Positions 7,501 through 37,199 of a stretch of DNA of 64,000 nucleotides are shown here, one piece after another (the stretch's first letter is position 1; every line of letters begins with the position of its first letter). The stretch comes from Schmidtea polychroa. Its lineage: Eukaryota. The position numbers and the translations under genes were made by a program. The stretch covers positions 34,102,001-34,166,000 of the forward strand of contig CM097885.1 of assembly GCA_044892525.1 (NCBI GenBank). The letters are read 5' to 3'. The notes beneath the pieces were generated by a model. The model saw only the letters and a program-made list of their open reading frames with translations, made no database searches and was not told where the DNA came from.

Positions 7501-10500
7501 TATTCCTATTTTTAAATATCACACTTTTCTTCTCCCATCCGAAATATATTAATTTGTAATGTATTTTCATCTATCTCAATTTTAATCATTTAAACATTAA
7601 TATTTTAGTTGATTATTTCTGGTCGTCCAAAGAGATTCTGAAATTACAACTTATAAAGTCAAGTATAAAATGAAAAATAAAAGAATAAGTTAATACATCA
7701 AACAGTTCAAAGTAAATGTAAAAGATGTTTGAATAAACAAAATAAAATCCATACCGAAAACTTATGTCAGATTGAGCAAATAGATTAAATTATTAAGTAA
7801 ACTAGACTCAATTAACTTATGCACTATCTTTAAACCTTAAATGATTCAGTTTTCTCCAAAAAAGAATTTAAAATAAAATATAATGAACATTTGATACAAA
7901 GTTTCATAAGAAATTTTGTTTAAACTCAATAAACAAAAATAATGTTATGAAATAATAAAATAATATTTAATAGTATTGGGATTAATAATAAAAATTATTA
8001 TTTCACAATTTATTAATAATTATTAAATAGTAATTTTAAGACTTAAAAATCAAAATTAGAAATTTATCAGAAAATGTGTCAAATAATGCAAATTAATTAT
8101 CTTACAATATTTCACAAGAGTGAAAAAGTACTTTAAAAAAATTATATCACCCGTCAGCAAGTCTCTTTTGTATGACCTGTCTAAAGAACAATAAAGTTCT
8201 AATAAAACTAAAAAAGTGATCATCCTAACTCTTTCACCTAGGTCCATTTTCTTTACTTTCATCTATGAATTTACCAATAACTGAACCCAATTGTCTTGAA
8301 AAAATGGATGATCTGTAGGATAATTTGATGTATCCAAAAGATTGTCATTAACAATATAATATATCTAATCAGTAATAATATATCAGTAATAATATATCTA
8401 ATCTGATATTTTTACATACCAAAAAGAAGGAATCAGTATATCGTCGGTTTAAAAGCAGAAATCACTAAGTCAAAAATCAACTTAGGAATTTCTGATTGTA
8501 TTATAATAGCACGATTGATTTAGTGCAATAAATGTCCGCCTAAAAACCTCAACAATATCAATTTACGACTTATAAGATTTTGCCCATATAAAGTTGGCAT
8601 TATAATGATTTAATTTAGTACAAAAAATCAAAATCTTGGAAAATGTACTTAGTGAATTTTGCTTGTAAACCAACGATATCCTTTTTACAATTAAAATTTG
8701 GCCTATATTTAGCTAATTTCTGATATTGTAAATGGTACATCTGGAGTTTCGATAAATTCAAAACTGTTTGACCAATATAGTTCGATCTGTTCAAACAAAT
8801 AGAGTCTGTGCTTAATGTTACAAGTCATTTACTTCAATTTAACTTATTGATTATAATTTTTCCCTAATAACTTTTAATTTAAATCAATTTTTTTTGAAAA
8901 TTAACATTTTACTATTAAAAACTAACTCATTCAACTTAATCAAGTATTTGTTCAAAATTTGTTACACTAGGTTAAATATTAAAATCTTATTTTCAATAAA
9001 TTTAAATTACTGATTTGACGTTTTGTGTAATGATCATGGTCAAAGAAATAAATGTAGGAACCATTTGATTTCAAATTGATATTGATATGACTGGTATTTA
9101 TCCTAAGGTTATCATAAAAGTTATCATAAACGATTTGAAAAGCACAAACGGAACATCAATAAAAGGTTAAATTATCCCACATTGATTTTAAAAAATGGGT
9201 CGTGTATAAAGAGAAAAATGATGAACAACATGACAAGATATTATTGTTGCAAATTACCTAGATTCTTCATATTTATCATTGCAGTCAGTCAACTCAATTC
9301 AAGCCTTCATTTATGTTGTAATAATTGTTCATGGTTTGTAATAATTAATTGATTGTCAATGCACTTTGACAGTTTAGATATTTATTGATTAAAAAACTCA
9401 ATGAGTCAGTAACTGTCGACTATTAATTTTAATGAAATACCCACCAAAACGAATGATATAAAAATTATATATACCCAACCCAAACAGCCCTCCCAACAAA
9501 AACATACCTCCATTACGCTTAAACCATTAGAAAAACAACATAAAACCTATGTTTTTATAGTATTTTAACCCCATATTTTAAACAACAACCACCCTTAATC
9601 TTTAAAGCCTCAAACTCAAAAGCTTCAAACTAAAAAGAGAATAGAAAAGAAAATGGCATTATGAAAAAGTTAGAGGGCTATTTGGGATAGGGCTATATAC
9701 ACACTACTTTTGATCGCAATCAAACTCCGGAGTTGATCTTTATCAGATTATTGATTTTAAATTATATAAATTAAAAAATAAATGAAAAATAGTAAAACTG
9801 CTCTGAGAGGACAGTGGTATTTTTTTTTTTTTATCACTGTCCCCTTTAACAGTTTTTTTGATCCGGATCATTTTTTTATTTATCAACCTCTTTCGTTTAT
9901 CAAATCTCTTCTAATATACAAGCTGGCCAGACTCATACATCAGAATCAATCCGATAATAGCAGCACACCTTATTATTCGCTTCTCACTCGAATACGATTT
10001 CATCGGCGTTTTAAGTGTGCTGCTCGAAAGTACAAATGAATTCGAAAGCGAATTCGAAAGAGGTCCGAAAACAACTGAGAAATAAATGTGCACATTAAAG
10101 AATCGATCCGGGGGTGTTCGAAAGACAGGTGGCGATAATTACGGGTTCGCCACCATCACCCGTTTCAATAATTTTTTTTTCATATTTATGTTTAAAAAAT
10201 AAAATAAAATAAAATAAATAAAATAAATAAAATAAAATAAAAATAAATAAAATATACAACTACTTTATAAATCTAAGATACCCACACTATTATTTTCAAA
10301 TTTTTAATATTATTTTATGTTGAAAAAAAACTAACCACAGTTTGGATTTGAACCACCATCCATTTGAACCACTGTGCCAGTCTAGCCCACTGCGCTATCT
10401 AGGATTGGATTTTTGTCATTTTTTTAATTTTTAATTTATAAAAAAATAAAATAAAATAAAATAAATAAAATAAAATATACAAGTACTTTATAAATATAAG

Positions 10501-13500
10501 ATACCCACACTATTTTCAATATTATTTTCAAATTTTTAATATTATTTTATGTTGAAAAAAAAACTAACCTCAGATGTGATTTGAACCGCTAGCATTTTGA
10601 ACCACTGTGTCAGTCTAGCCCACTGCGCCATCAAGGTTTGGATTTTTTGTCATTTTTTAAATTTTTATTATAAAAAATGAATAATATAAATCTTAAAAAA
10701 TAAAATGAAAACAGGGTATCCAATAAAAAATTTTTTTCTAAAAATGAATTGTAATATTTGCAATAAAGTTTTTAAAAATAAAACTGGATTAATTTCTCAC
10801 TTAAAATCGAAAGCTCATTTATTAAAAGAAAATAATCTTAATGATACAAATTCAAAAGTTTGTCCTAAATGTAAAGGAAGATTTCTACATTCTGGATATA
10901 ATAAACATTTTGAAAATTGTATCGGGAAAAATAGAGAAATATTTACATGTTCTCACTGTAACTTTTCAACAAAAGTAAATTTCTATTATTTAGAACATAT
11001 AAAAAAATGTAAAAATAAAAAACAAAATTCTGACGATGAGGAATGTCATTCAGAAGGAGAACCTGATCATGTTGAAAGAGAAAAATATAACTGGGATAAT
11101 TTTAATCATATAGATGAATTTCAATTAAAAATTAATGGACCTGCAACTCCTGGAGAATATATAAATAAAAATAAAAAAAATATTAAAAATTCTTTCACTG
11201 AAGCTTTAAAAAATTATAAACCGACAAGGTATAATGTTATAAAATATAAAATTATAATCAAAGCAAAATACTGGCGAGGAGCAGAAGAAAAGACAACACC
11301 CTTAGATGTTGAAATTGGAATACCTTTTAAATATTTATTTTCAATTAAAGGATTTGATAAAACCATCAAAGAAATAATTAAAGCAGCAGAAGCAAAACAA
11401 GAGGAAGTAGAAAATGAATTAGGAGATTCAAACTTAGTATTCAACTCTTTCCAAACTTTAGTGATTGATTATTGGAGAGGATTACCACCCAATCCTAAAT
11501 CTTATATTCCTACACCCTTTAAATCTAAAAATGTTATAAATGTACAGAATAATGATAACAAATGTTTCATCTGGTCAATACTTGCACATTTACATCCTCA
11601 AGCAACAAATCCCCAAAGAGTTTCAAAATACAAACAATATGAAAATGAATTAATATTTCCCAAAGGATTCAAACACCCAATGAAACTAGAAGACATTCCA
11701 GAATTTGAAAAATTAAATAATCTTAAACTTAATATTTATGAACATGTTATAGGGAAAGAAATTATTCCAATTTATATTTCAGATAGTGGAACCAAGGATA
11801 ACGGAGCACAGGACAACGAGATATATCTTTTAATCTTGGAACAAGAAAATAATCAACATTATGTTTTAATAAAAAACTTTCAAGCTTTTACATCTCCAGA
11901 GAATCCAACTAGTGGAGGAGGAACATGTAAAAGATGTCTTTATTATTCAACAACTAAAAACTCTATGATTAAACATACAAGATTTTGTGAAAAAGATGAT
12001 CCAGCTTTAATTAAAATGCCTAATAGTCCCAAGATGTATTTTAAAAACTTTTCAAATTTACTACAAACAGTTGGAGTTCTTTATGGTGACTTTGAATCTA
12101 TAAACCATAAACAAGATTTGGTTTATCAATATTTAAAAATAATAGAAAAAAATAAACTCATGGATTTATGGAACTCCTCAGGAGAGAAGATGAAACCAGA
12201 GAGGATGAAAGCCTTTCTAAGAAAAAGAAATAAACCTAATAGTGTTAAAAAAACTAAACAATTACCATCTGCTTATAAATTATTATTTAAAAGTAATTAT
12301 CCTGAACTCATAGAATCTAGAGAATATTCAATTCTAGGAGGTACCCCTGAAGAAGTCTTGAATCATTTTACTAAAAATATAAATGATCTAGAACATGAAA
12401 TATTTAAAATATTAAAAACAAAGTATCCTCAAAATATTTCTAATCAACAACAACAAGAATATGAAAATACTTCCAACTGTTGGATGTGTAAACAGAATAT
12501 TCTTCCTGATGAAAAAGTTATAGATCATGATCATTTAAAAAAGGAAAATAATTATCGAGGAGCAGCTCATAAAAATTGCAATCTTAATTGCCATACTCCT
12601 AAATTTATACCTGTTATATTTCATAATCTTTTTGGATATGACATACATCTATTTATTAAACATTTAGCAGCAAATGCTAAAAACTCTTTCAAAGTTATCG
12701 GCTTAACAAAGGAAAAATATAAATCAATTGAATATGGAAAATTAAAATTTATAGACTCGTTAAACTTTCTCCAAATGTCTTTAGATGCAGTAGCAAAAAC
12801 AATGAAACCAGAAAATTTTAAAATCACTCGAGAATTCTTGGAAAAAAATAATATTCCTCTAGAAGAATATCCTACATGTTTAGCAAAAGGAATATATCCT
12901 TATGACTATGTTGACTCGTTTGAAAGATATAATGAAACAAGTCTTCCTAGCCAAGAAGATTTCTATTCACAACTTCAAAAAAATCATATTACAAATCAAG
13001 AATATTCTCGAGCAAATAAAATGTGGGAATTATTCAAGTGTAAAACTTTAGGAGAATATACAAGTATGTATTTATCCTTGGATGTTTATATTCTAGCAGA
13101 TTGCTTTGAAGAATTTACAAACTCTTTTGTTCTTAAACCTTATAATTATATAACTGCACCCTCTTTAGCTTGGGATACTATGTTATATACCATTTGGACT
13201 TCAAATATAGAAGATGCTGATAAAATTATAGATCTTTTAACTAACCTCGATATGTTTAACCAAATTAAAACAAACATTAGAGGAGGAGTCTCTTCAGTAA
13301 TGGGGAATAGAGAAATAAAAGCTAGAAATGCAATAACTACTAGCCGAAGACTATCTAAACACCCTGATGATCCATATATGAAAATTAACAATGAGGAATT
13401 AAAAGAATTATTAGAAACAATGAAAAATCCTATATTTATACTTTATATAGATGCAACAGCTTTATATTCAGGAATTATGACTCAATATTTACCAATGAGT

Positions 13501-16500
13501 GATTTCACTGAAATAGAGAACCCAACAGATGACCTTATGAAAGAAATACTTTCAACATCGAAAGATTCTCCAATAGGTTACTTTATAGAGTGCGACCTCG
13601 ACTATCCAGATGATATAAAATCAGGAACAAGATATTTTCCTTTAGCTCCCATAAGAAGAAAGATTGATATCAACGAACTTTCTGAATGGCAAATCTCACA
13701 AGATAAACCTCCAACAATGAAACTTCTTTGTGATCAAACAGATCGAAGGTTTTTTCTTTGTCACTATAGACTCCTCCAATTTTATCTCTCACGAGGAATG
13801 ATATTAAAAAAAGTTCATAGTGTCATAAGATTTAAACAAGCTCCATTCATGAAAGCTTTTATCGAGGAGAACATTAGGTGTCGAAACATTGCAAAAAGAG
13901 AAGGTAATCTTTTTAAAGATAATAATTATAAAATTTTAAACAATTCAGTCTTTGGGAAGACAATGGAGAATGTTGATAAATATACTCATATTGAACTCCT
14001 AACTAATACTGCCAAAGATATTAAGCGTTATAATCGTATGCTAGGAAAGCCTACATTTAAAAACGCACAAGTATTTTCTGAAAATCTTACTGCAGTAGAA
14101 TTAAAAAATTATGAGAAAACATATAACAAACCAATATTTATAGGGTTTACAATTTTAGAACTTTCAAAATTACAAATGTATGAAACATATTATAACATCT
14201 TACAACCTATATACGGAGCAAATATATCAATGCATGCAATGGATACAGATTCAATGTTTTTAACAATAAGAACTCATGATTTACAAAAAGATATGAAAGA
14301 AAATCCTATACTTTCAAATTTAATAAATTCATCTGGAGAACTATTTTCGTTTAAAGATGAAAAACCTTTTACTCCTATAGAAAATGGAATATTTATTCGT
14401 GCTAAACAATATTCATACGAAACATTTAGAAACCCTGAATTTATAACTAGATCATTTATATTTAAAACTCCAGAAACAGAAGAAACCATTACACATAGAT
14501 ATCCTATATTTCCTAAAGAAGAAAAACCCGTAAAGGATAACAGATGTAAAGGAATACAGAAATCAGTTGCAAAGAATCTTTCTCATCAAGATTATATAGA
14601 TACATTGAATCCAAATCATAAAGATAAAATTGATGAAATACATCAACTTAAAAGTGAAAACCATGATATTCACTTGATAGAATCTCAAAAAGTATCATTA
14701 TCAAATTATGATGATAAGAGATTCATCCTAAGTGATTTAAAGACAACTCTTCCTATAGGAAATAATTTAATACCGATAATAAAAAATCTAGAAAAGTTGA
14801 ATAAGTTATATGATACAAAGATTACTGATCTTGATATTTATAATGTTGAAATTATTTATCCCGAGAGAGAAATCGAGAAACCTTTATATTCTCAAGTTTT
14901 TAATCCTATATGTTTAGAACTTAAATATTTTAATACTGATCCTGAATATATAAAAGGTCTAAGTGATAAAGAATTTAAAGATCATAAATTAATGATTCAT
15001 AGGTTGGCTTTCAACCATAACTGAAACCAACGATATTTAATTTTTTAATAATAAAATGTCGACAATTAATTTAAGCAACTATAGCAACCTGATCTACTTT
15101 TTTAAAAATACACCCATTTTATAAGTAAGAATTCTTTAACCATTTTTCTCGAGATGTTTTTTTATTACTTATAACATTAGCCACCATGCCCTCCCTTTTT
15201 AATCTTATAACCTCATTCTTTATATCTTGTATTATTTGATTTTATTTCATTATTTCTTCGTCTGTCAGGATTCCATCTTCCAAAGCTTTTAATTTAAATA
15301 AAAATAATTTAGAGATTCCTAATTCTATTGATAAACAAACTTCTCTATATAAACTTTTCTTTTTAGAAGTATAAGATAATGAAACTATTTCAGTTAAGAA
15401 ACCATCAGCCACAGAAATACTTCCAAGTATTACAGGTGCAAGAGTAACAACTGGTAAAGTTATGGGTAAAATAACTGTTAATATTGCAGATGCAAATCCT
15501 AAAGAATAACCTATAACTTTTAAAACTGTATTCCCTTTATTCCATCTATTTTTAATTTTTTTATAATGCTTTAATAAATCTTGTAAATGTAAGGTTTCTG
15601 ATTTAAATTCTTTTACTCTCATAATTTCAAGTTCTGTGGGAGCCGAGGCCTTGGAACCTTTGTGACCTTCGGAATAATATCCTGATGATCTCAATTCTGG
15701 GTAAATTTTTTCTTGTCTTACTTCTTCCATTTTAATAATTAAAAAAATAAAACTTTATTCTTCTGAGCACCATCTGGCACCAATACTCGGATATCAAAAG
15801 AAACTCTTGTTGAGAGGATATCTTTATACAATTCTCTCAATGCTTTACGAACTTCATCAACATCAACCTTTTTTTCATAAAATATTAAATCTATATATTG
15901 TACAAGTGAACTAGAAAAATGAATATTCTTACTTTTAACTTTATGTAGTCCATGTGAATGAGTATTAACATACCAATCTCCGTGTGGTAAATCATAACTA
16001 GTCATTATAACATCACCCTTTTCAAGCTTACTATTATAATCACATTTCACAAACCATTTCATTCTTTCATTATCATCATCAAACAAAAAGAAATAAGGAT
16101 CAATAATTTTTACAACCATAAAAACACCCCATTCTTTACTGTTTGTTGTTATTAAACTTGGTTCTATAAAATGTTTATATGTATGGGGTAATAATGTTTT
16201 ATTCTGTTCTAATTCAGCAGCTCTTTTTCTAATACTATGTGTGGTGTTAATGTGTGTTCCATGAGACTCTAAATTTGAAATTCTTTTATTAAATGATGTA
16301 ATCATCTCATTTATTATTTTATATATTGTATTAAATTTAGTATTCATAATTTGTTTATCTTTAGAATTTAATATAGCAGTATTTAACTTTACAACTTGTT
16401 CAGTTAACAGACTTTGTAACTTGTCAAATTTATCATTAAATCGTTGTTCGATATTATTAAGCTTTGATTCCATTGAATCAATTTTTGTTGTTAATGAACT

Positions 16501-19500
16501 TTCAATTCTTGTTGTTGTTAAATCAGTATATTTTTTAACACCATCTACATATTTCTTATTAACTGCATCAGCTTCATCAGTTGGAAAAGATAATTCTTTT
16601 ATCTTGTGTCCATTTAAAATTAAATCACCCTTCATTGAATCACCTCTTTCATTAATATATTTATTTTCTGTTAAAGTTAATATTTCTTCTGTATTAAACC
16701 CTGTTTTTATTGTTCCACCACCTCTATTACATGGAATATAAGAACTCATTTATTAATAATTTAAAATGGACGGAGTCCCCTGAGAGGAACTAAACCTGTT
16801 TCAAATGTAAATACATTGAAATCTCTTCTCCATTAAAATCAATCAATTCTCCTTCTTGATTAAGAATTTTAAAATTAATATCCATTATATATTTTCTACA
16901 TAAAGGTAATTAATTTGGAGGATTCATTCTTTCAACTATTTTATATCCCATAGGAACTGTGTTTGAGGGAAAGGAATATAAAACATTTGTTTGTTTACCA
17001 TTATTATAAGAACCTGTTATACAATCGCAATGAATATTTATTGTGTTTGTATTTATTATTTTTATAATATGTTCTGATGTTATTATTTTATCTTCTTTTA
17101 TTGTTATATCCATAGGTTTAAATCCTAAAACTGTGTGAAAGAAACAATTATCTAAAAAACTAATTTTTATATTCTTCAAAGTCATTACACATTTTGAAGT
17201 TGGTATATCCATTTTAATTTTAATACCTTCATTTGTTTTTTTAGAAAGTATATCATTTAAATCTTTTATCTCATATGCCCCAGGTTCTATTGTTATAATT
17301 TCTGGTTTATGCCCATCACGAGTTTGAATAGTAAATTTATTATTATCTTTAGTTATATTAAAAATAGTATTATAAGCACAAAACCATAATAGCCCCAATT
17401 CATAATTTAAATTTTGATCTAATTTAATTGAATCTTGAAAGTTTATAGTAAAGTCTGATTCTTTTGAATTTATAGATAAAGTTCTTGAATATTTATCTGA
17501 CATTATGTTTACCATTTTTTTTAAATTATCTTCCGGAGGGTTGTGAAGCTCCATTTCTTTAGTAGTAAATTCATATAGTAAAAATCCTTATAGTAAAAAT
17601 CCTTATAGTAGAGATTCTAGATCATTATAAATTTCTTGAATTATAGATTCAAAATCCTGTGCATGCCCCTTTCCCTCTCCCTTATTCAATCTATACAAAA
17701 CATATAAACTTAAAATACCACATATTTTAGTATTCAAAGGTTGAACTTGTAAAGAGTTAAAAGTATAACCATTTGGGGAATCAATCGGAGAACCCCTCAA
17801 GAGATAATCTTCAACTTCTTTAGTAGGTTTAATCCCAAAAGAATCAAAGTAGATAGATTTCTTATATATACAAACCCAATGAGATCCTTTTTCATTTGAA
17901 TTTTGATAATTGATTATTATATTCAGGGGACTCTCCAGACTTGATAATTCATCATTCATTAATATTTTAATTTTTAAATTTAAATAATTTGCATAATCTT
18001 TTAAATCAAAATTTGTTTTTGCATTTATTCCAAATGTTTTTAAAAAATCTAATATTGAAGGAGTCATTTTGTATTTTAAAACTTCGTATTTATAACTTCG
18101 TATACTTATTAAATTTATCTTTTGAAATTATTCCTTGTTTTAACAAATCTTTAGAAATCTTTAAAATATCAGAATCTAAATTATTATGTCCTGCTTTCCT
18201 TGCAGCTAATAGTTTTCTTAATTCAATAAAAAGATTGATGGGATTTGGTTTACCACCTTCACTAATTAATCCCTCTCCCTCTGTAACAACATAACCCTTT
18301 TCATTTTTATTTAAATAATTCTTTAAATCTTGAATATATTTTGCTTTAGAACTAGCTCTTATTAATCTTATTAAATTTAAATATTTTTTAATTTCTTCAA
18401 CATCATCTGAAGAATATCCACAAAGTAATCTATAAAAATCATCTGTAAATTCAAAGTCTAAATATTCATTATTATAAACATTTTGTGAATGAATACGTGA
18501 TTTATTTTCTGAATTTGAATATAAAGTAAAGTTTTGTTTATTAATTGTTATTATTTGATATCCTTCAGTATTAGTATTAAATGTGGGTCTAATTGAAGGT
18601 AAATCATCTCTAATTTTAGGATCAACTTTAAGAGCTTTTGTTTTTAAAAACATTTCTTCTTCTTCCACATTAGAAATTCTTCTGCGTTTTCTTTGATTTC
18701 TTTCAGAATGACTTTCAGGATGGTTTTCACTGGATTCTTTTTCTTTATCCTGCCACTCTAGTTCTTTTATTTTTTGTTTTTTATCTTCTAACTCTTTAAA
18801 TTTTGCTTGCTCATTGAAATCTTCCAACTCTTTTATAGCTTTAATTGTTGGCCCCTGTTGTTGTGTTATTACCTCATTTAATATTATAGATTCAGCATGT
18901 TGAGTTGTATCTTTTTTATTATATTTATCTTGTTCTGATTGTAATTTTTTTAAAAGTGCTAATCTTTCTTCATATACCATTTTAATGGTATCAAAAATGG
19001 TATCATAGTTCGAAGGGCTTCAAGTATAATCCTTTACCATTTTTAGTTTTACAAAGGCATCCATTCTTTAAAGGTTTACATATTTTTTTTAAATCTTCTT
19101 TATCTTTTGAAGATAAAGATTCAGATGTAGAAATTTGATTTTTTAAAAAATCATTTAAACCTCTACCTTTATAAGGATCAAGATAGAGACCTTTGCCCTG
19201 AGACTTTTGCCGACTCCCCTCATATGGATTAAGATAGAGACCCTTTCCAACGGACACTCCCCCTTTAGCTTGCCCTACCTTCTTCATTGAATCGATTTCA
19301 GTTTGTAGTTTTTCTTTTTCTAGGTCTGTCTTTTGAGATTCTTTAGCTTTTTGAACTGTAGTTGCAATTCCTCCAGCTATTCCAGCAGCACCTGATAAAC
19401 CAGCAATGATTGCAGGTATTAAAGCAGCTAATGGAAGAATGCCACCTTCTTTAGCTTCGTGGAGCTTCGCTCTAACTTGTTCTTTTACATGTTTTCCAAT

Positions 19501-22500
19501 AAAATATTTTTTACCATCAATTACTACTGATTTATTTTTATTTGAATTTATTAATTCTTGCAAAGATTCTTCAGTTGTCATTTTATAATAAATAAAAATG
19601 GATACTTGGAAACCAATTTTAAATAGACATAAGAGTAAATTTAATAATAAAGTATTTCCTGATAATTTTAGATTATTAATTGTTGGTTCTTCTGGATGTG
19701 GAAAGAATGTACTTGTTTTGAGAATGTTACTTGAAGATGATTTTTTAGATTATAATAATTTAATCTTTTATTCTACGACCATAAATCAACCAGAATTACA
19801 ACTTTTGAAATGTGGATTTGAAAATAAATTAACTAAAAAAGCAATAATTGATATTTTTAAAAATCAACATAGGTGTCCTGAAGAAGTTTTTCAACCTTGT
19901 GATATGGTTGATTGGTATAAGGAAAAGATTTTAGAATCAGATATTAGTAATAAAAATGATTATATTTGTGAAGAAGGGCAGGAGGCAATTCAAGTTTTAT
20001 TCTCTAATAAACCTGAAGATGTTTTACATTGTGATTTACTTCCTAAAGATAAAAAGAATCTAGTTATATTTGATGATGTTGTTAATATGAAAAATCAAGA
20101 GATTCAAAAGAGTTACTTTACACGAGGTCGACATAATAATTGTAATGTTATTTATATATCTCAAACATATTATGCTTTAGATAAAAATTCAATAAGAAAT
20201 AATTCCAATTGTTTTATATTTTTTAAATTAGATCGCCGTGATAAGAATATGATTTATAATGATTTATTTTCAAATGTTGAACCTGATAAGAATATGTTTG
20301 ATATGTTTGTTGATAATCATTGGAAAGAAAAATATAATTATATTTATTTGGATAGAGAAGAAGCTGAAATATGGAAAAGTTTGTTTTAGGGCTTGTCGAC
20401 TTAAAAACCTGTTTTCTGTAGTTCATTATTATAAAATCTACCTAATATTTTTTCATTATTTAAATCAAAGATGCTATATGTTATTGGAGTTGTATAATGT
20501 ATTTTATTTATAATAAAAATTTCATTTGTCCATTTTGCTGTGAATCCTTTTTCAAATTTATTTTTATATTTAAATATTCTTACTCGGTCACCAATTTTAA
20601 ACTTTGGTTTTTCAATAACATCATTTTCAATATTTACCACTTTAATGGTTTCAGGCTTCATGGAAGCATTTAAAGGTGTTAATTTTATAGAACTATGTAC
20701 ATCATTATTATATTCATTTACAATCTTTTGTAACAATTCATTGTTCCATTTTTGTTTTCCAATAGCAGTAAAATATTTCCACATTTTATTTTTTAATGTT
20801 CTATTTAATCTTTCAACTACGACTGCTTTTCCTTCGTTTTCTGTTGAATATAATTTAATATCATTTTCATTTAAAAACTTTGTTATAAAATTCTGTTCCT
20901 TTATCACTCCATAAATATTTTGGAATTCTTTGATGTTCTTCAAATATATTTTCAAATGCTTCTGTAATGGAATATCCTGTTTTATTTTCTAAACACCTTG
21001 CAAAAGCAAATCTTGTATATAAATCTATTACAGTTAAAATTATTTTATATTTTTCAGGGTCTGATGATTTGGGCATAAAGACTAAATCTGCAGACCATGT
21101 TTGATCTTTTTCATGTACTTGAACTTTTAAATATTTTTTATTTTTTCTAAATTCATGGTGTAATTCCTTTGCATATTTTATTTCTGATTCTGTTGGGGTT
21201 TGTAAACTAGCCTTGGATATATTCTCAAGGGATCTTTCAATGTCTGCTTGTTCGATAATCTTTTAATAAGCAACATCTTTTGCTATTCTAGGAAGTCTTG
21301 CACCCATGGTGATCGGACTGTGTCCTAAGCCTATGAAAATTTTACCTTTCATTGCTAATTTAACTAGAGCTCTTTGAATCTTTTCTTGGGTTGATGGATT
21401 TTGGATACTATTTAAATCATGTATTAAATTCACATCTGCAACATGTCTATCTCTAAGATTTGTTGAATTGTATGCAATGTCATGTTTTAAAGCTGCTTGA
21501 TCAATTCTATTTATTGGTTCTTCTCCTTGTTTGGGATTATTATTTTCATCTAATCTAATATCTAATCTTGTTCCTGGTCCGGTGTAGTTGTGTTTAAATA
21601 AATGTCTTTCACCTGGATATTTTTCTGTAGTAAAAGGTTTTAATATTGAAGATGTTGTTTTTGAAGATTGTAGAGCGCCTCCTGTATGTTTTTTAGTTTT
21701 TAAATGACTTGCTTTATGATGTCTTGTAACTTGACAATTACAAGTTTCACATCTCCAATAGGGTTTATTTAAAGACATTTTAAAATGTTAAAATATCAGG
21801 GATTATATCAAGAATCTCCCCTAACATTTTCGATTATTGAAATCTTTCCACCATATAATTTCATTTCTATTTTCTTTTCTTCTAATATTAATGTATATAC
21901 TTTAGCTTTAAAATTAGAATCCTTTGTTACATGAAGTGTAACATCAACATTATTTATAGCTAGACGATCATCTTGATCTGATACATTTATACAAAATATA
22001 GAATATAAATTTTTGAAATCTTCTAAACTTAATTGCGGTTCAACTTTGAAATCATAACATGTTTCAATATAATTTAGATATGGGAATATGTTTTCATTAT
22101 TTTCAATATTAAATTCCATTCTATTTATTGGATAATAAGAACTATTTAATTGAATTTGGATTGTTTTTAAATTATCATCTCCAATCTTTTGAATAAATAG
22201 ATTGTTATTTTTTTGGAAAGATGAATCTGTTTCTTTAAATCCAATCAAGATATATCTTGGTCGGTATGCTAAATTTGCTACCTTTATAGAATATGTTGAA
22301 CCCTCTGTCATACTAAATTCACTACAGATTCTATTTAAATAATTTACATTTATAGACTTGTTGGAATTTAATCTTTCAAGGAGTTTAATCTCAGAATGTG
22401 GGTTTAATGTCCATTCAGGTATATGTAATTCAAGTGTTGATAATTTTAATTTAGCTTTTGTATCAACAGCTCCATAGAACAATCTTTTATCACCTTCTAC

Positions 22501-25500
22501 TCTATTACAGATGAATTCTATAAAAACATTATGAAGTATACAATTATAGTTTTGAAGGAATCCAAACAAGTGTTTTAATTCAAAATAACCTTCAAATTTT
22601 TTAGATTTATAAAGTTCAGCTCTTTTATGGTAACCATGGTTTACATCTAAACCATCTTTATCTAAATCCCCTTTATTAACATCAGGAATCCAACCTGTTA
22701 ATTCACCATATTCGTTTTTATAATCACAACCAGTCAAAATAAAATTTAACATTGTAGAATATACTCCCGGATGCAAAACAGTTTCAATTTCTGATGATCC
22801 TAGTTTTAATCTCATGTTGGAGAATAAATTTGGAAAGAAATTATTTTCTAGGGTTATATCTTTGTTTGCTTCAATTTCTAATTCGATTTTATAATATAAT
22901 TTGGCATTACAAATATCTATAGGGTTTGATGTTTGAAGAGATTGAAAAACTATATCACCCCTACGATTTAAGTTTGCAATAGATCCTGAAGTTGGGGAGA
23001 TTTTAAGTACATCGTTTTTCTTGATTTCGTGAGTAAATTCTTTATTATAATCAAGATTTAATTTATTTTTTTCTTGAATTTTAAGATTTATATTATTCAT
23101 TTTTATATATTAAAATTTACACACACAAAATAGGATTAATTAAATATATTATGTAAGCCATTATAGCGGAGTGGGAATAGGCTTCAATTTTATCACCGGG
23201 AGTACCGGGTTCAATTTTCGATTTTGGTCAATTTTTTTCGATATTTTTTTTCAACGGAATCTGATTTTAGTATATATTTAAATTTTCAGATGGATCTGAG
23301 TGGTAGTTGTCGAGAAAATGAATAATTAATTATTAATTTCATCAATAAATAGTCACACATTAACAACTTACTTTATATTGAGTATAGCTCTAATAGCTTA
23401 GTGGTAATAGCACTCAACTGCATTGCCAATACCAATGGGTTCAAATCCCATTTCGGTCATTTTTTTTCAAATATTTTTTTTAACGAAATATTGATCAGCA
23501 TACTCGATTTAGTACTTGTACAAATTTTTAAGGAGATTGGTCAACGGCAACTCTTGGAAATTTAAGATCAAAAACGTTTTAACTACCAAAAATTAATATA
23601 TCCAATAAAAAAATATTTATAAAAATGGATGAGTTAAAAGAAAGAATGAGAAATGAATTGAATGAAGTTAAACATAAGAGAATGAAAAGAAGAGAAGAAG
23701 AACCATTAGAATACATCAAAGAGTTGATGGTAGATAATGAAAAGTATCGACATTTTTATATGAAGGTTGTAGATGTTGCTGATATAAGATTGAAGAAAAT
23801 GAAACAATTACAGGAAAGAGTTAAAGAACTTGAATCGATTATTTATAGTCTAAAAAATGACAAAAATTCAAACCTTGATGGCGCAGTGGGAATAGACTGG
23901 CACAGTGGTTCAAATGGATAGTGGTTCAAATCACATCTGAGGTTAGTTTTTTTTCAACATAAAATAATATTAAAAATTTGAAAATAATATTGAAAATAGT
24001 GTGGGTATCTTATATTTATAAAGTACTTGTATATTTTATTTTATTTATTTTATTTTATTTTATTTTTTTATTAATTAATTATTTTTTAAACATAAATATG
24101 AAAAAAAAAATATTGAAACGGGTGATGGTGGCGAACCCGTAATTATCGCCACCTGTCTTTCGAACACCCCCGGATCGATCCCGGTAATGTGCACATTTAT
24201 TTCTCGGTTGTTTTCGGACCTCTTTCGGATTCGCTTTCGAATTCATTTGTACTTTCGAGCAGCACACTTAAAACGCCGATGAAATCGTATTCGAGCGAGA
24301 AGCGAATAATAAGGTGTGCTGCTATTATCGAATTGATTCTGATGTATGAGTCTGGCCAGCTTGTATATTGGAAGAGATTTGATAAACGAAAGAGGTTGAT
24401 AAATAAAAAAATGATCCGGATCAAAAAAACTGTTAAAGGGGACAGTGATAAAAAAAAAAAAAATACCACTGTCCTCTCAGAGCAGTTTTACTATTTTTCA
24501 TTTATTTTTTAATTTATATAATTTAAAATCAATAATCTGATAAAGATCAACTCCGGAGTTTGATTGCGATCAAAAGTAGTGTGTATATAGCCCTATCCCA
24601 AATAGCCCTCTAACTTTTTCATAATGCCATTTTCTTTTCTATTCTCTTTTTAGTTTGAAGCTTTTGAGTTTGAGGCTTTAAAGATTAAGGGTGGTTGTTG
24701 TTTAAAATATGGGGTTAAAATACTATAAAAACATAGGTTTTATGTTGTTTTTCTAATGGTTTAAGCGTAATGGAGGTATGTTTTTGTTGGGAGGGCTGTT
24801 TGGGTTGGGTATATATACACACTACTGTCGTGTATAAAGAGAAAAATGATGAACAACATGACAAGATATTATTGTTGCAAATTACCTAGATTCTTCATAT
24901 TTATCATTGCAGTCAGTCAACTCAATTCAAGCCTTCATTTATGTTGTAATAATTGTTCATGGTTTGTAATAATTAATTGATTGTCAATGCACTTTGACAG
25001 TTTAGATATTTATTGATTAAAAAACTCAATGAGTCAGTAACTGTCGACTATTAATTTTAATGAAATACCCACCAAAACGAATGATATAAAAATTAAATTT
25101 AAACATTATTTGCAGAAACTAATTTTGATAAAACCAATTTGTTTATAAATGTTTTTTATCTCTTCCATCGAGCAAAATCAATATTTCCTTAAGAATTTAT
25201 CAAAAATTTAATAATTTCATGTGTTGTCTGATCTGTGTTACGGTGCAAATTATTTGACAGTTGTCTTGAACTTTTGGAATTTCAAATATTATTCTTGGGA
25301 AATTAATCATTGAAATTCCAGAAGTCTGAATCAACAAATTTGACTATATATATATATATATATACATACATTATTTTTACTAGAAATATTGTAATATAAA
25401 TATTTTTATAACAACAATATTATATCAAATAATAATTCTAAATAAAGAAAGGAAACTTTAATAAGTATTTGAAATTGTAAAATATTCATTAATTTCCGAA

Positions 25501-28500
25501 TAACTCTTTAAAATTAATTTTGTTTAAACCAATCAACACATACTTTCTAATATTCATTGTAAGAATTTAAAATATTTTGACATTTATTATATCCAATTTT
25601 ACTTTTAAGTTAATCTCTAAAGAAAATATAAATGTTTTAATCCAGTATTCCCCAAACATACAACCCATGTGTATCTTTTTCACATATTTTTTAACACTTC
25701 CTACCTATTAAAAGAAAATTTCTTGGATATACTATTAAAAAACTACTAATACTTTTTCCCATATGAGGTTAAGAAATAAAAAATTCTTAAATTTTGATTT
25801 TAGGGAAAATATTCTTTATAAGAGTTACTGATTGACTTTAAACACCTAAAACAATCTTCAAATAAATTTTCATCGAATTTTTAAAATAAAATATTGATTA
25901 TTTAAAAATTTTATAAGAAAATATTGCAGTTTCTTAAAAACAAATTTAATCATGTTAGTTTTGATAAACTATAAACAAAACATGAAAATTATTTTTTATA
26001 ATATAATGCAAATCTGTTTATTATAATTAAATGAATTAATCATTAATTATTAATGAGATCATAGTATGCATATAGCTAATGGTTTTAATGATCGGTGCTT
26101 GAATATAAAGAAAAGAATAAAATAAAATTTTTTAATCAAGAATAATGAAACGGATGATGTTGTTTATGTCCGGATTAAATTACTTTATTATTTGGTTCCT
26201 GATCTAATTTTAATCTTAGATGTGGCTCTACATTGAGTATTCTATTTCTATTTTTGTGATAATATAAACGAAAGTGGAAAAGGCAAATTCTCACAGATAG
26301 GAAGTTGGGAAAAGTAATATGAATTTCAGAACATTTTCAATTAATATAGGTTAAACATTTAATACTTCTGACCAAAATGACGCTAATCTATGTTCTGTAT
26401 ATCTATCTTTCAAGAATCCATATGAGGATAATTTTAACAATTGTTCTAATCCAATTTCATAAACCTCCTGACATGCATGTTGAAGCAATATTAAATGAAT
26501 ATCCTATACATTCAGCATTTTTCTCCAATCCAGGCAAATAATGCTATAGATTTAATTGTGATTTAATATAAATGCTATTTAATATTTCCCACATTTTCAC
26601 ATGAATACAACTGCCTGAATTTATCTGTAATTCATCAAGGAAAGATTTGAATTCTCCATTAATAACTCTTCAATGGCACAAATTTAATTTTTCTATCATA
26701 GCTTATACTTTATCTTGAACGTGAAACATTGAAACGTTTTTACCTTATAATGGCAAATTAAGACTGTTCAAGACAGAAAATATATCAACTAAATAGACTA
26801 ATTTATTTTATCCTTTCCAATCACGTAAATAGTATAGGCACTTTTTCAATTCTCCTCGAAGTTCAAACAATCGATTTAAAGTTTTCCTCTTGTTAGGCAA
26901 CGAGCATTTGTATGGCCGAGAAGTTAAATATGGATACTTCCCATTTCTTCACACATTTCTAAAAAATGTCTTAATATAATTAAAATTTTTTATTACTTTC
27001 ATCCAAAAACGTTTTTTAAATCTGGTGACGTACTACATGTTGCCAAAATGTTTTAAAATGTTTTCTTAGCAGATTCTTAAGAAGCGCAAAGTGACTCAAA
27101 GTCATTAAATTGATCATTTCATGCTTGTCGGTTGGAATCATATTCCTGTAGTTTTTCAGATGTAAGTGATTCAGTTTTTACCCAACAATTCATTTCTAGG
27201 ATCGATAAAATAATGTTAAAATTACAAAAACGATACACTAATCATAATTTTGAATAAAAATTAATGGAAAAAAACAATAATAGTGTAAGGAGTTAGTAAA
27301 CCTCTATATAACATTATTATGGTTAAATGGTAGAAGTGAGATCAGTTAGTAGAAATAATTATTTCTGTTAAATTTGTATATTTAAATTCTATATTAAATT
27401 ATATCATATTATATTAAATTATATTAAATTAAATCAATTAAATGTATGACCAGTAATTACATTAATATTAATAATTATCACGCCTCGGTGTTTAAATATT
27501 CTAGTAAACGGCACAATTTTTGAAGTTGTTATAAAAATAAATGCTTGAAGAAGACTTGAATTTAATTGCGTCTAACATGGCGACCACGACCACGGATTTA
27601 TTGATAAGCAGACTATTACCTGAGAAATTTCACAAAGGCGATGATTTAGAAAATTTTATCAAGGATTGTCAAAGGTTTTTTGGCGCGACAAAAACAACAA
27701 TTAGGATGCAAGTAATATTAACTACAACATTACTTGACAGATCGCTAATGGAAGATTATGAAGCAGCCGAAGGAAAAACTATGGAAGAGAAACTTCGATA
27801 TGCATTTTCAAAACCGACATCATTAATGGATGATCTAAAAGAAGCTTTGAGTTATGAACAAGGATCAGATTCAGCCGAAACTTTTATAGAGAAAATTAAA
27901 AAGATTACAAAGAAATTAATAGCGCACAAATGGGATGAAGAAGAAATAGAAAAATGCCTGCTTACAAACTGTGTAAGAGATCGAGAAGTTAAAAAAGAGA
28001 TCGAGATGAAAGATTTGAAAACAGTAGTATGATTGGAGCTCCCCCGGCCAGGAGCTCCCCCGGCCACATATACCCCCTCCCCCCCCCCCAAGAAAAAAAA
28101 ATTTTTTTTTAATTTTTTGTTTTAATTAATTGGCCGGGCGGGCTCACACTTTTTTTCATCCCAAAAATTAATGTTCCTGCCAACAGATTTTATTGACCGA
28201 TACCTCATCTTAAAGCTCAGTCCAAGACCTTTCGAATGAGCTATAGGTATCATATATATCTTTAATAGTTTTAATGTTATTAACAATTGATGACCACCAT
28301 CTTTTCAACGTTAAATTATTATTATTTTCCAAAATATTATTAATTGGCCGGGCGGGCTCACACTTTTTTTTCATCCCAAAAATAATGTTCCCACCAACAG
28401 ATTTTATTGACCGATACCTCATCTTAAAGCTCAGTCCAAGACCTTTCGAATGAGCCATAGAAGGTATCATCATCATTATTATTAACAAAGAGATTGACTC

Positions 28501-29127
28501 ACCCAATGACTCACCCAACGATGTCTAATATTTTTAGAACGATGCCAAATATTTTTAGAATGGTGCCTAATATTTTTAGAACGATTACATCATACTTTTA
28601 GAACGATGCCTCTTATTTTAGAACGATGTCTAATATTTTAGAACGATGCCTATTATTTTTAGAATGATTACGTCATATTTTTAGAATGATGCCTAATATT
28701 TTTAGAACGATGCCTATTATTTTTAGAACGATTACATCATACTTTTAGAACGATGCCTAATATTTTTAGAATGATGCCTAATATTTTTAGAATGATGTCT
28801 ATTATTTTTAGAACGATTACGTCATAATTTTAGAACGATGCCTAATATTTTTAGAATGATGCCTAATATTTTTAGAACGATTACGTCATACTTTTAGAAC
28901 GATGCCTAATATTTTTAGAATGATGTCTATTATTTTTAGAACGATTACGTCATAATTTTAGAACGATGCCTAATATTTTTAGAATGATGCCTAATATTTT
29001 TAGAACGATTACGTCATACTTTTAGAACGATGCCTAATATTTTTAGAATGATACCTAATATTTTTAGAACTAATAATCTTTGTTTTAATTATCGATTACA
29101 TATTAATTTAATTTGTTTAAATCGTTG

Positions 29128-29166
<39 letters not shown>

Positions 29167-32100
29167 ATTAGTCAAAAACCTAAAATAATTTTTACACACT
29201 AAGTTATGGGGAGAGAATTATTATATGTTTGCAGTATTCTGTGTTTGCCTTTACAGGAAGTTGTCAATAAGGAGCGATAATTTTATATACACATACCTTG
29301 TTTAACATGGGTGTATATACTCCTAGTCTATCCGACAAAATATTCTGTCCCCCTATGGGTACTGCTCACAAAATTACTGGTAAAAATATTCAAGACAAAA
29401 CTTTCTAAATTCTAAATATTATTCTTTAAATATACACTAAAATTTATTAACACATTCACATTCATCATCTCCACAGTTCATAACATTTTCAACAACATGA
29501 TCTATACAATCCCTATATACACACGGTTCAGTATCCGTAAATTCCTCCATAGGTTCATCAATTTCTTGAATGCTTTCCTCATCATCTTGAGTGTTTTCTT
29601 CATCTGTTTCATCAAATTCCGAATCTTCACTCTCTGCTACCCAGTCTATATTTAATGCGTTTGTAACAGATAATATATCCGCCATTTTCACACCAGATAT
29701 TTCTGCTAATTTTTCCAATAAAAAGTTTATTATAAATTCTAAATATTAAATAATTCGATAATTAACTAATCATATTAACCTTTTTCTGTAGTCATTATTA
29801 GTATTTTAAAACTATAGTATATATTTGTTTATAGAAAATATAGAATATAAGCGAAAACAAATATGACTAAATACATTTATTAAATACAACATTAAAATAA
29901 CTGTGAAAGTCTAGCAGACATAATTTTCCAAATTGGAGAATACACATCATTATTATCAACTTTATATCCTTGGATTGTAATTGTTATATACCAATTTTCG
30001 TTTTCTTTGAAACTGATTTCATCAAAGGAATCATAAAATTTTGCATATCGGTTGTTGAAAAATGCATTTTGATTGCATGATAGATTCGTATTCAACCTTT
30101 TGAAAACATCATCTATGGTTTTAATATCTAACATTGAAAGCGTGCCGGTTAAGAATTGAAATTGGGTAGGAATTAGCTTGATCGGTGACACCAATTTCAT
30201 ATTGATTTCTTCTTTTAAAAAATACATTTTGTAGTTGTGGAACATTTGAACAGGTTGTACAAGTTCTGGAACTACTTTTGGTTTTTCAGTGCTTGAAATT
30301 TTCTTGGTCATTGTGAATTATGATTAAAATGAAATGGTACAGGGTTTTTATACCTATGACTATTGTTTATCATCCAATCAGATTGCAGTATGTTTTTGTT
30401 TTAATTGAATGATAAATAATTAATTAAGTGATAATAAAAAATCTAAAAATTCTTTTCCTTCAATTATTGATTTAATTTCAGATATGATATTATCAACTAT
30501 ACTTTTGTAATCAATATTTTTTATTCCAAGAATTACTATCTTACCGCTAGCGAATATATTTACACACATAGGGTTATATTTTATATATCTCAAAGCTGGA
30601 AATAATTCTGGTTCATAAAAGCATGGTATTAATTTAGCTAATTTATTTAAATTACAAGAAAAACCTATATCGGAAGTTACGGTTATCGATTGTATTTCTA
30701 AATCATAAACATTATATTCACTAGCTTTGATTATTTCCTTACACCCCATAATTCTACATTTACCAGTTTTGAAATATATTATTGGATATTTATTACTTCT
30801 ATTGATAAGTTGTTGTGGTTTCCCTATTGGAAATACCATTTTTGATACATCAGTTTTTGCCCTGTAATTTATATTTGAAAGCATTTTAATGAAATAATTT
30901 TAAAAACTTTGATATATATAGGTATTTAAAAACAGAGTTCATTTAAATTATCAATATAAACAATAATTATATAGTTTAAATTTAAAAAATGGAATTACGA
31001 AATGATGCAGTATACCAAATCGTTGGTCCAAGTGGTAGCGGGAAAACTTTATTTGTTTGTAAATTACTAAAATCAAATTTGTTTAAAACAAAATTCAACA
31101 ATATTTATTGGCATAGGGGCGCCGACGAAGAACACGGATTGACGCAATCAAGTTTCTGTCAGTTGAAAAACATGAAAATAGTAAAGGTCTTTGATAAAAA
31201 CTGGTCAAGTCGTTTGAAGAAAGATGATGTCATCATTATCGATGATTTGTATCAAGAAGCCAATAAAGAAAAGGACTTTAATAATTTATTCACAAAAATC
31301 AGCAGACATGTTGGTGTAACAGTTATTTTCATAACACAAAATCTATTTCATCAAGGTGGTGCACATCGAACACGTAATTTAAATGTACAATATTTAGTTA
31401 TTTTCAAGAATCCTAGAGATGCAACTGTCATTGATTTTCTTGGACGACAAGCATACCCTAATAACCGTAATTTTCTTATCAGTGCATTTCAAGATGCCAC
31501 GAAAATACCGCATGGGTATATATTTCTCGATTTCACACAACAATGCCCTGATGATATACGGGTAAAAACGGATATTTTCAACCCAAAAGGTGCCATGGTA
31601 TATAAACAAAGTTCAAAACAAAGTTGAAAACATATAAATCATGTTTTCAAAAACAAGGATATCGGGTAAAAAACAACCAAAAGTTCCACCAACAACTAGT
31701 TATACTCCATCTAAAGAACTTATTACAGAAAATTTTCCTGCAATGAATCTTATTTCGAAAAATCCTAAACCAAAAAGTAAAACCACTAAGAAAGTAAAAG
31801 TTGTTAAAAATCATCGGAGTTTCCCGTTTTTCAATACATTGTTAAAGGCACCAAGTATGAAAAGAAACAGTATTTTGCAATCATTTCCAAATTATGTTGT
31901 CGATGATTTACTCGATATTATACTTAAAGTAGTCAAAGGCAAGATTAAAATCAGTAAATCTAAAAAGCAATTATTGAGTAAACATAGGAAACCTTTGCTA
32001 TCATTAGTAAATAATAAAAATCGTCAACAAATGAGAAAAATTATATATAAACAACAAGGGGGATTTATCGGTGCATTGATACCTTTAGCAATATCATTAT

Positions 32101-37157: not shown

Positions 37158-37199
<42 letters not shown>

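What the first reader, a model, noticed from the sequence alone, without database searches (positions are those of the whole stretch)
10331..23946. Five outward-facing tRNA-like Pol III genes at the inner edges of Polinton A's TIRs (VA-RNA analogues?)
Seen: ~74-nt units at 10331-10404(-), 10564-10637(-), 23157-23230(+), 23387-23459(+) and 23872-23946(+). Each has an A box (TRGCNNAGTGG), a GGTTCAA B box and an immediate T7-T9 terminator. Neighbours are spaced ~230 bp apart. Promoter boxes are conserved while acceptor and anticodon stems are degenerate; unit 4 looks tRNA-Cys-derived. Established: adenoviruses, which are Polinton relatives, make Pol III VA RNAs that counter host defences, and tDNAs act as chromatin barriers. 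Inference: these are viral small RNAs (RNAi/defence decoys) or TFIIIC insulators bracketing the gene block.
Basis: partly seen in the sequence, partly recalled or inferred. Interest (0 to 1): 0.85.

Follow-up and report, generated by a model that had tools for sequence, protein, structure and literature searches.

The report
Pol III promoter relics in Polinton
A very abundant virus-like jumping element carries worn-down tRNA genes at both ends that keep the signals for RNA polymerase III but not the tRNA shape, so they likely act as protein landing pads beside its polymerase and capsid genes rather than as adenovirus-style decoy RNAs, and two of them are shared with the host's ribosomal-DNA spacer, from which they were likely copied.

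Summary
The five units are real (5 found, 0 in 200 shuffles) but are three genes. U1, U2 and U5 are one unit of the terminal inverted repeat (type A); U3 and U4 form a separate cassette. They lie in a high-copy Alpha-adintovirus-type Polinton. Type A is in 35 of 35 capsid-selected copies. Its A box, B box, a second internal B-like motif and terminator carry no shared variants (0/21, 0/9, 0/8 sites), against 22/44 elsewhere in the unit. No fold is conserved. That is selection on a promoter, not on a VA-like structured RNA. The U3+U4 cassette is missing from 32 of those 35 copies and is about 99% identical to a tRNA-like array in the spacer of one of the host's two rDNA types; homology ends at the cassette's edges, so capture from rDNA is likely. 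No free SINE-like copy was found (0 of 60, 0 of 30 loci). Other Polinton-like families sampled lack such units. Best reading: cis-acting TFIIIC/TFIIIB modules beside the pPolB and capsid promoters (0.5). Pol III binding and transcription are untested. The scan noted these units before in other copies of this genome.

The parts
9466..24827 (.). Polinton / Alpha-adintovirus-type element. The right end has the intact terminal motif. The left end lacks its last ~10 bases and abuts a 275-bp flank duplication.
   Evidence: inverted repeats and D5; termini; genes
9466..10424 (.). left terminal inverted repeat, including U1; pairs with about 23852-24817
10331..10404 (-). U1: type-A unit (A box, two B-like boxes, T8), outer tandem copy
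10564..10637 (-). U2: type-A unit, inner tandem copy (233-bp block); position 1 lies 67 bases from the pPolB ORF's ATG, head to head
10705..15024 (+). protein-primed family B DNA polymerase ORF, 1439 aa
   Evidence: Pfam PF03175 E 1.2e-11
19598..20389 (+). A32-like packaging ATPase
   Evidence: PF04665 E 9.7e-9
20401..21778 (-). PLA2-like / integrase region, in pieces in this copy (21263-21778 PLA2-like; 20867-21076 rve; 20401-20784). A relative has a single 441-aa ORF with like motifs (by eye).
21808..23100 (-). double-jelly-roll major capsid protein, 430 aa
   Evidence: PF21738 E 1.4e-25
23112..23589 (+). U3+U4 cassette, shared with the host rDNA intergenic spacer; a 6-bp AT-rich direct repeat flanks it; absent from other subfamilies
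23157..23230 (+). U3: degenerate tRNA-like unit, 56 bases from the capsid ATG, head to head
23387..23459 (+). U4: degenerate tRNA-like unit with a tRNA-Cys-like D arm and GCA anticodon loop; paralogue of U3 (48/74)
23625..23921 (+). 98-aa ORF of unknown function; accessory (missing in many copies); ends inside U5
23872..23946 (+). U5: type-A unit at the inner edge of the right TIR
23852..24827 (.). right terminal inverted repeat

Best explanation
The TIR unit (U1/U2/U5) is a tRNA-derived A-box/B-box/terminator module whose boxes are conserved across this Polinton family while the rest of the unit drifts, and it likely works on DNA by recruiting TFIIIC/TFIIIB (and Pol III) at both ends of the gene block, whereas U3+U4 are a host rDNA-spacer cassette that one lineage likely copied in later. 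Inferred mechanism: the bound Pol III complex sits 37-67 bases from the ATGs of pPolB and the capsid gene, head to head. It would keep those promoters open, set their start sites, and block host read-through and heterochromatin entering from the flanks. Any ~80-90-nt RNA would be a by-product. The doubled B-like motif would strengthen TFIIIC binding. The captured cassette put a Pol III unit back next to the capsid promoter (56 bases) in a lineage where a 98-aa ORF had moved type A about 300 bases away. Shown: presence, box conservation, geometry, identity with the rDNA spacer. Inferred: binding, transcription, barrier effect, direction of transfer.
For: Type A is present in 35 of 35 distinct capsid-selected copies and in the most divergent copy seen (L212, capsid 94% identical). 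Among 144 units, variants shared by 4 or more copies fall on 0/21 box sites, 0/9 inner B-like sites and 0/8 terminator sites, but on 22/44 other sites (Fisher p=3.6e-5; shared versus singleton p=0.003). The result is the same in 118 units not picked by the box pattern, in 69 units without the overlapping ORF and for G/C sites only (p=0.012). No conserved fold: z-scores -0.25, 0.72, 0.22 and 0.15 for U1, U2, U3, U5; acceptor pairing among distinct 5'/3' combinations is no better than permuted (P=0.26). Distance to the capsid ATG is 37-38 bases in 26 of 26 measured cassette-less, ORF-less loci, duplicates not removed. Capture: homology to the spacer starts and ends at the cassette's edges; the 6-bp repeat is on both sides in the Polinton and on one side in the spacer; the spacer array has a further member, U0, 237 bp upstream and outside the shared block; three letters differ in all Polinton copies over ~470 bp; cassette diversity is 0.015 against 0.033 at capsid third positions; 18 of 20 cassette-bearing capsids are nested among cassette-less ones when outgroups are added (quick tree). 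Precedent: tDNA barriers need TFIIIC and Pol III (PMC2040200, abstract); Pol III complexes block Pol II read-through and shift neighbouring starts (PMC4228148, PMC5052057, abstracts).
Against: There is no occupancy or expression data. Box conservation shows selection on the promoter but cannot say whether the DNA-bound complex or the RNA is what matters. The terminator and the last six bases of the unit are also invariant, which fits an RNA role too. Sites and copies are not independent, so the p-values are too small. At haplotype level 2/21 box sites do vary. Counting all copies, acceptor pairing is slightly better than permuted (-3.63 vs -3.39 kcal/mol, P<0.001). In the cassette-less subfamily with the 98-aa ORF, type A is about 300 bases from the capsid ATG, so closeness is not required. 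Other Polinton-like families in this genome persist without such units. piRNA-guided silencing of planarian Polintons acts within the element (PMC8532177, passages), where end barriers may not help. The DNA tree needs 5 label changes, and starred branches force at least 3; the rooted protein tree was the unfinished quick version. The second rDNA type lacks the array, so an older Polinton-to-rDNA origin of the array is not excluded.
Confidence: 0.5

Rival explanations
1. Trans-acting viral small RNAs (VA-, TMER- or decoy-like): the boxes are kept because an abundant ~80-90-nt Pol III RNA ending in U's titrates host factors such as La, exportin, PIWI or Dicer, or mimics uncharged tRNA.
For: The boxes, terminator and last six bases are invariant. 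The family holds thousands of units (3155 exact pattern matches). U4 folds better than shuffles (z -2.78). VA genes are A/B-box Pol III genes proposed to derive from tRNA (PMC7589676, passages).
Against: VA RNAs are about 160 nt with three conserved stems (PMC7589676); type A is 75 nt, unstructured, and half of its non-box sites carry shared variants. No covariation among distinct haplotypes. U4, the only folded unit, is accessory and the host already holds it in hundreds of rDNA repeats.
Confidence: 0.22
2. Passengers: tRNA-like relics picked up from host DNA and carried along. Box invariance reflects gene conversion between TIRs and hitchhiking, not function.
For: This is plausible for U3/U4, which are absent from 32 of 35 capsid-selected copies, near-identical to the spacer, and too young to show selection (0-1 shared variant sites each). 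Sampled sister families lack such units.
Against: For type A, neutral drift does not explain 0/21 versus 22/44 within the same 75 bases, the kept terminator, or the universal presence (35/35).
Confidence: 0.18
3. Nuclear addressing: the boxes tether integrated or excised elements to Pol III or nucleolar compartments, helping replication or integration. This would also explain exchange with rDNA.
For: A doubled B-like motif sits at both termini. Sequence is shared with the rDNA spacer, and four spacer letters segregate among Polinton copies. tDNA clustering at nucleoli is recalled from yeast and comes from no call.
Against: No localisation data. Copies are spread along chromosomes. Insertion-site preference was not tested.
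Confidence: 0.08
4. Insertions of a host tRNA-derived SINE family into the element.
For: tRNA-like head plus T run; thousands of genomic matches.
Against: 55 of 60 U4 loci have Polinton flanks and 5 of 60 have rDNA-spacer flanks; 30 of 30 type-A loci lie in the Polinton TIR. No free copy was seen. The samples are the first matches on one chromosome arm.
Confidence: 0.02

Closest known systems
Helenus / TRIMp3 LTR elements (PMC10886601, abstract and passages)
   Same: A tRNA-derived sequence sits in both terminal repeats of a mobile element; boxes A and B are conserved; no functional tRNA.
   Different: There the promoter is proposed to transcribe the short retroelement itself. Here it faces outward, ends at once in a T run, and sits in a 15-kb DNA virus-like element.
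tDNA / TFIIIC barriers and Pol II roadblocks in yeasts (PMC2040200, PMC4228148, PMC5052057, abstracts)
   Same: A/B-box units next to Pol II genes at domain edges; this is the mechanism proposed here.
   Different: Those are host chromosomal sites with demonstrated binding. Here the unit is portable, degenerate and untested.
Adenovirus VA RNAs (PMC7589676, passages)
   Same: Intragenic A and B boxes, T-run terminator, proposed tRNA origin, related virus lineage; a VA terminator change altered the adjacent Pol II gene.
   Different: VA RNA is about 160 nt with conserved terminal, central and apical structure. Here 75 nt, no conserved fold, and located at the termini.
Divergent tRNA-like A/B boxes driving Leishmania U2 snRNA (PMC4950102, abstract)
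   Same: A non-functional tRNA-like unit acts through its boxes on the neighbouring gene.
   Different: The neighbour there is a Pol III snRNA gene; here the neighbours are long protein-coding genes.
tRNA genes of Polinton-like and MELD viruses (PMC12220804, PMC8502044, passages); MHV68 tRNA-like TMERs (search listing only)
   Same: Polinton relatives and other DNA viruses carry tRNA-type genes.
   Different: Those in Polinton-like viruses are tRNAs detected by Rfam or ARAGORN and proposed to aid translation. These units fail ARAGORN and have broken stems; no miRNA hairpin lies before the terminator.

Membership tests
Polinton / Alpha adintovirus (host element) | pPolB, retroviral-like integrase, A32 ATPase, DJR capsid | tested here: met
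   Pfam hits; integrase in pieces in this copy
Polinton / Alpha adintovirus (host element) | PLA2-like virion gene typical of the Alpha class | tested here: met
   PF08398 E 1.3e-9; class feature from PMC8502044 passage
Polinton / Alpha adintovirus (host element) | long TIRs and 6-bp target-site duplication (feature recalled) | tested here: inconclusive
   TIR about 0.95 kb. This copy's left tip is missing. A 6-bp duplication was seen in 1 of 2 sister end-pairs with both termini readable.
functional tRNA gene | cloverleaf with paired acceptor, D, anticodon and T stems | tested here: not met
   ARAGORN 0; Rfam borderline for U4 only, with unpaired positions
type 2 Pol III promoter gene | A box, B box at tRNA spacing, oligo-T terminator | tested here: met
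   box conservation
type 2 Pol III promoter gene | TFIIIC / Pol III occupancy and a discrete transcript | not testable with these tools
   no RNA holder listed; contigs only
adenovirus VA RNA | about 160 nt with stable terminal, central and apical stems | tested here: not met
   73-75 nt; folding z-scores about 0 for four of five units; no covariation among distinct haplotypes
adenovirus VA RNA | abundant RNA that inhibits host dsRNA sensors or Dicer | not testable with these tools
   needs experiments
tRNA-derived SINE | dispersed free copies with their own flanks and duplications | tested here: not met
   0 of 60 and 0 of 30 sampled loci
tDNA chromatin barrier / roadblock | box-dependent block of heterochromatin spread or read-through | not testable with these tools
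   only geometry and selection were shown

The most novel reading that the evidence does not exclude
An animal Polinton has domesticated tRNA-like Pol III modules from its host's rDNA spacer twice: an old capture fixed in the TIRs and tuned to a double B box, and a recent one. It uses them as portable insulators that keep its polymerase and capsid promoters usable in a piRNA-silenced genome, while the same array serves one of the host's two rDNA types.
Probability: 0.3. Interest if true: 0.8.

Novelty: new variant of a known kind. Interest (0 to 1): 0.55.

Why it matters
If true, a virus-like transposon with thousands of copies scatters thousands of selected TFIIIC/Pol III sites through an animal genome and uses host barrier machinery for its own promoters. 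This gives a testable answer to how such elements stay expressible under piRNA control. It also shows DNA traffic between a Polinton and rDNA, and reveals a tRNA-like Pol III array specific to one of two rDNA types. Ten literature searches listed no report of such units in animal Polintons or in this kind of rDNA spacer. The library lacks most subscription papers and Repbase entries, and no supplements were read.

Tried and rejected
Expression: no RNA holder listed. Laying contigs of 4 of the 12 listed runs gave higher depth over U5 in two runs and little over U3/U4. I do not use this. Contig depth cannot rank parts; the unit is multi-copy; A-run loose ends just downstream could be the 3' end of the 98-aa ORF message or internal priming; and a loose end upstream of U3 looked like the rDNA-spacer flank by eye. 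Sister elements elsewhere: the viral collection gave no confirmed locus. 38 metagenome loci showed no credible unit (regex and ARAGORN on 38, Rfam on 20 of 38), but most are short, and in the two I annotated the gene order differs, so this is inconclusive. Searching the genome with 50% and 74% capsid relatives returned only the same family. The first acceptor-pairing permutation was spoiled by one truncated row and redone. One search had no de-duplication and is used only for per-column patterns. Three truncated rows of 147 were dropped before the box counts. L005 was labelled cassette-less in the DNA tree although it holds U4 in a rearranged copy. The high variant density in type A as a sign of transcription-linked mutation was set aside: the neighbouring spacer of the same tandem block is as variable. 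No type-A parent was found in either rDNA type or among three host tRNAs. The atlas search of the 98-aa ORF was uninformative. 'Host rDNA second type as source of type A' was rejected.
Full report
1. Observation. The pattern occurs five times in the window and never in 200 shuffles. They are not working tRNAs: ARAGORN finds none and Rfam scores only U4, at the threshold. They are three genes. U1 and U2 are a 233-bp tandem pair inside the left terminal repeat and U5 is the mirror copy in the right one; I call this unit type A. U3 and U4 lie inside the right end and are paralogues (48/74 identical with similar flanks). Type A carries a second GGTTCAAA 16 bases before the B box.

2. The element. 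It spans 9466-24827 and encodes pPolB, an A32 ATPase, a PLA2-like gene, integrase pieces and a double-jelly-roll capsid. The PLA2-like gene marks Alpha adintoviruses (PMC8502044, passages; that paper has no mention of VA RNA or polymerase III). The family is very abundant: 3251 first-look capsid candidates and 3155 exact matches to a type-A pattern. The host has 781 Mb, four large contigs and two rDNA types. This recalls dugesiid planarians, but that is recall and was not tested.

3. Not a SINE. I fetched 60 loci holding the first 62 of 3110 matches to a U4 21-mer. 55 have Polinton flanks and 5 have rDNA-spacer flanks. The first 30 type-A matches all lie in the Polinton terminal repeat. Both samples come from the start of one chromosome.

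4. Core and accessory parts. Among 35 distinct copies chosen by capsid likeness to two relatives, all 35 have type A and 3 have U4. This sample favours cassette-less subfamilies; in the position-ordered sample cassette-bearing right ends were commoner. Where cassette and 98-aa ORF are absent, type A starts 37-38 bases from the capsid ATG (26 loci, duplicates not removed). In the window U2 is 67 bases from the pPolB ORF's ATG and U3 is 56 bases from the capsid ATG.

5. Origin of U3+U4. A junction pattern found 1063 matches, and those listed lie mostly in a ~13-kb tandem repeat. That repeat is host rDNA: 18S, 5.8S and 28S. U3 and one to three U4 copies lie in its spacer, antisense to the rRNA, about 3 kb before 18S, in 9 of 9 repeats counted. 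Homology with the Polinton covers window 23112-23589, exactly the block missing from cassette-less copies. A 6-bp repeat flanks it on both sides in the Polinton and on one side in the spacer. A third tRNA-like unit lies 237 bp upstream in the spacer, outside the shared block. Three letters differ in all Polinton copies and four spacer letters segregate among them; cassette diversity is half that of capsid third positions. In the capsid DNA tree all 61 cassette-bearing rows fall on one side of one branch together with 5 others (support 80/98), though at least 3 label changes are forced. With outgroups, 18 of 20 are nested among cassette-less copies (quick tree). Capture from rDNA is the simplest reading. 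The second rDNA type (~11.6 kb, ~90% identical) has no such array in 5 of 5 stretches, so the deeper origin is open. Type A shares D-loop and 3'-end motifs with U3/U4 and may be an older relative; its parent was not found. U4 matches host tRNA-Cys in the D arm, anticodon loop and B box.

6. What is selected. In 144 type-A units (147 aligned, 3 truncated dropped), shared variants hit 0/21 box sites, 0/9 inner B-like sites, 0/8 terminator sites and 22/44 other sites. The result holds without pattern-ascertained loci, without the overlapping ORF and for G/C sites alone. At haplotype level it is 2/21 against 22/44. Copies are related, so the p-values overstate. No structure is kept: four of five units fold like shuffles, and distinct acceptor-strand combinations pair no better than permuted ones (P=0.26), although all-copy counting shows a small excess. 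U3/U4 are too uniform to test.

7. Relatives. Four 39.6-kb stretches holding other Polinton-like families (pPolB 25-35% identical, or the TBP-bearing family) show no credible unit, and the window's second, TBP-bearing element has none. 38 metagenome loci show none but mostly lack element ends. The trait appears specific to this family.

8. Mechanism. Selection on boxes and terminator without selection on fold, a doubled B-like motif, and a fixed place at both inner TIR edges head to head with the two flanking genes point to a DNA-level role. In yeasts, tDNA barriers need TFIIIC and Pol III (PMC2040200, abstract), and Pol III complexes stop Pol II read-through and shift neighbouring starts (PMC4228148, PMC5052057, abstracts). 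Planarian Polintons are piRNA-silenced at chromatin level (PMC8532177, passages), which would give a motive if the host is one. I put this at 0.5, a trans-acting RNA at 0.22, passengers at 0.18 (higher for U3/U4 alone), nuclear tethering at 0.08 and SINE at 0.02. Binding, transcription and any barrier effect are inferred. Sequencing runs gave nothing usable.

9. Known systems. The nearest anatomy is Helenus, with tRNA-like boxes in terminal repeats (PMC10886601, abstract and passages). The nearest function is the tDNA barrier or roadblock. VA RNAs share the promoter type but need a 160-nt structured RNA (PMC7589676, passages); that test is not met. Polinton-like viruses carry recognisable tRNAs (PMC12220804, passages), unlike these relics. 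Ten searches listed no report of such units in animal Polintons or in this rDNA spacer; no supplements were read.

10. Earlier notes. After forming my reading and finding the rDNA link, I saw that the scan had noted the same units in other copies in this genome (e1-8072744, e1-7879910, e1-7879896) and a spacer fragment shared with a neighbouring Polinton (e1-7879912). These are not independent support. Four other notes gave the coordinates of sister families that I then scanned.

11. Verdict. The feature is real, selected, and a new variant of a known kind. The VA analogy is weak, the cis reading is plausible and unproven, and two of the five units are host rDNA-spacer cargo. Interest 0.55.

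Noticed in passing
L224:3500-4570 (G000 contig C115); also L225, L226, L228, L232, L234, L235, L241, L243: The host's ~13-kb rDNA type carries an antisense array of degenerate tRNA-like Pol III units (U0, U3, one to three U4) in its spacer, about 3 kb upstream of 18S. The ~11.6-kb second rDNA type (L236-L240, ~90% identical) has none.
   Followed up: partly
window 28022-38221: A second Polinton-like element arranged as a near-palindrome (arms over 4 kb) with duplicated TBP-like genes (30420-30884 on -, 35440-35904 on +), A32-like ATPases and a central integrase with chromodomain. It has no A/B-box unit.
   Followed up: partly
window 9199-9473 and 24827-25101: A 275-bp direct duplication flanks the element instead of a short target duplication; the left terminus lacks its last ~10 bases.
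   Followed up: no
window ~10660-10700 versus ~23080-23120: The left end keeps a short remnant of the capsid gene's start just upstream of pPolB, so both flanking genes share the same promoter-side sequence next to type A.
   Followed up: partly
window 24380-24540 (and its mirror in the left TIR): Strong hairpin signal inside the TIR (z -4.6 to -6.7 on the + strand), downstream of U5's terminator; function not examined.
   Followed up: no
window 23625-23921: Accessory 98-aa ORF with very low diversity among cassette-bearing copies (0.007); it runs into U5; no family found.
   Followed up: partly
L015, L038, L042, L183-L188: Host tRNA genes lie in long single-isotype tandem arrays (Cys 281-bp period with 1000 motif matches, Arg 278 bp, Lys 424 bp).
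   Followed up: no
L106:5436-5515 (-): A distant metagenomic adintovirus-like contig has a hairpin matching Rfam mir-754 at 48.6 bits (E 9e-7, below the gathering score of 84) between two ORFs.
   Followed up: no
window 38174-41151 and 51752-54879: LTR retrotransposon gag/pol pieces and exons of a Piezo channel gene.
   Followed up: no
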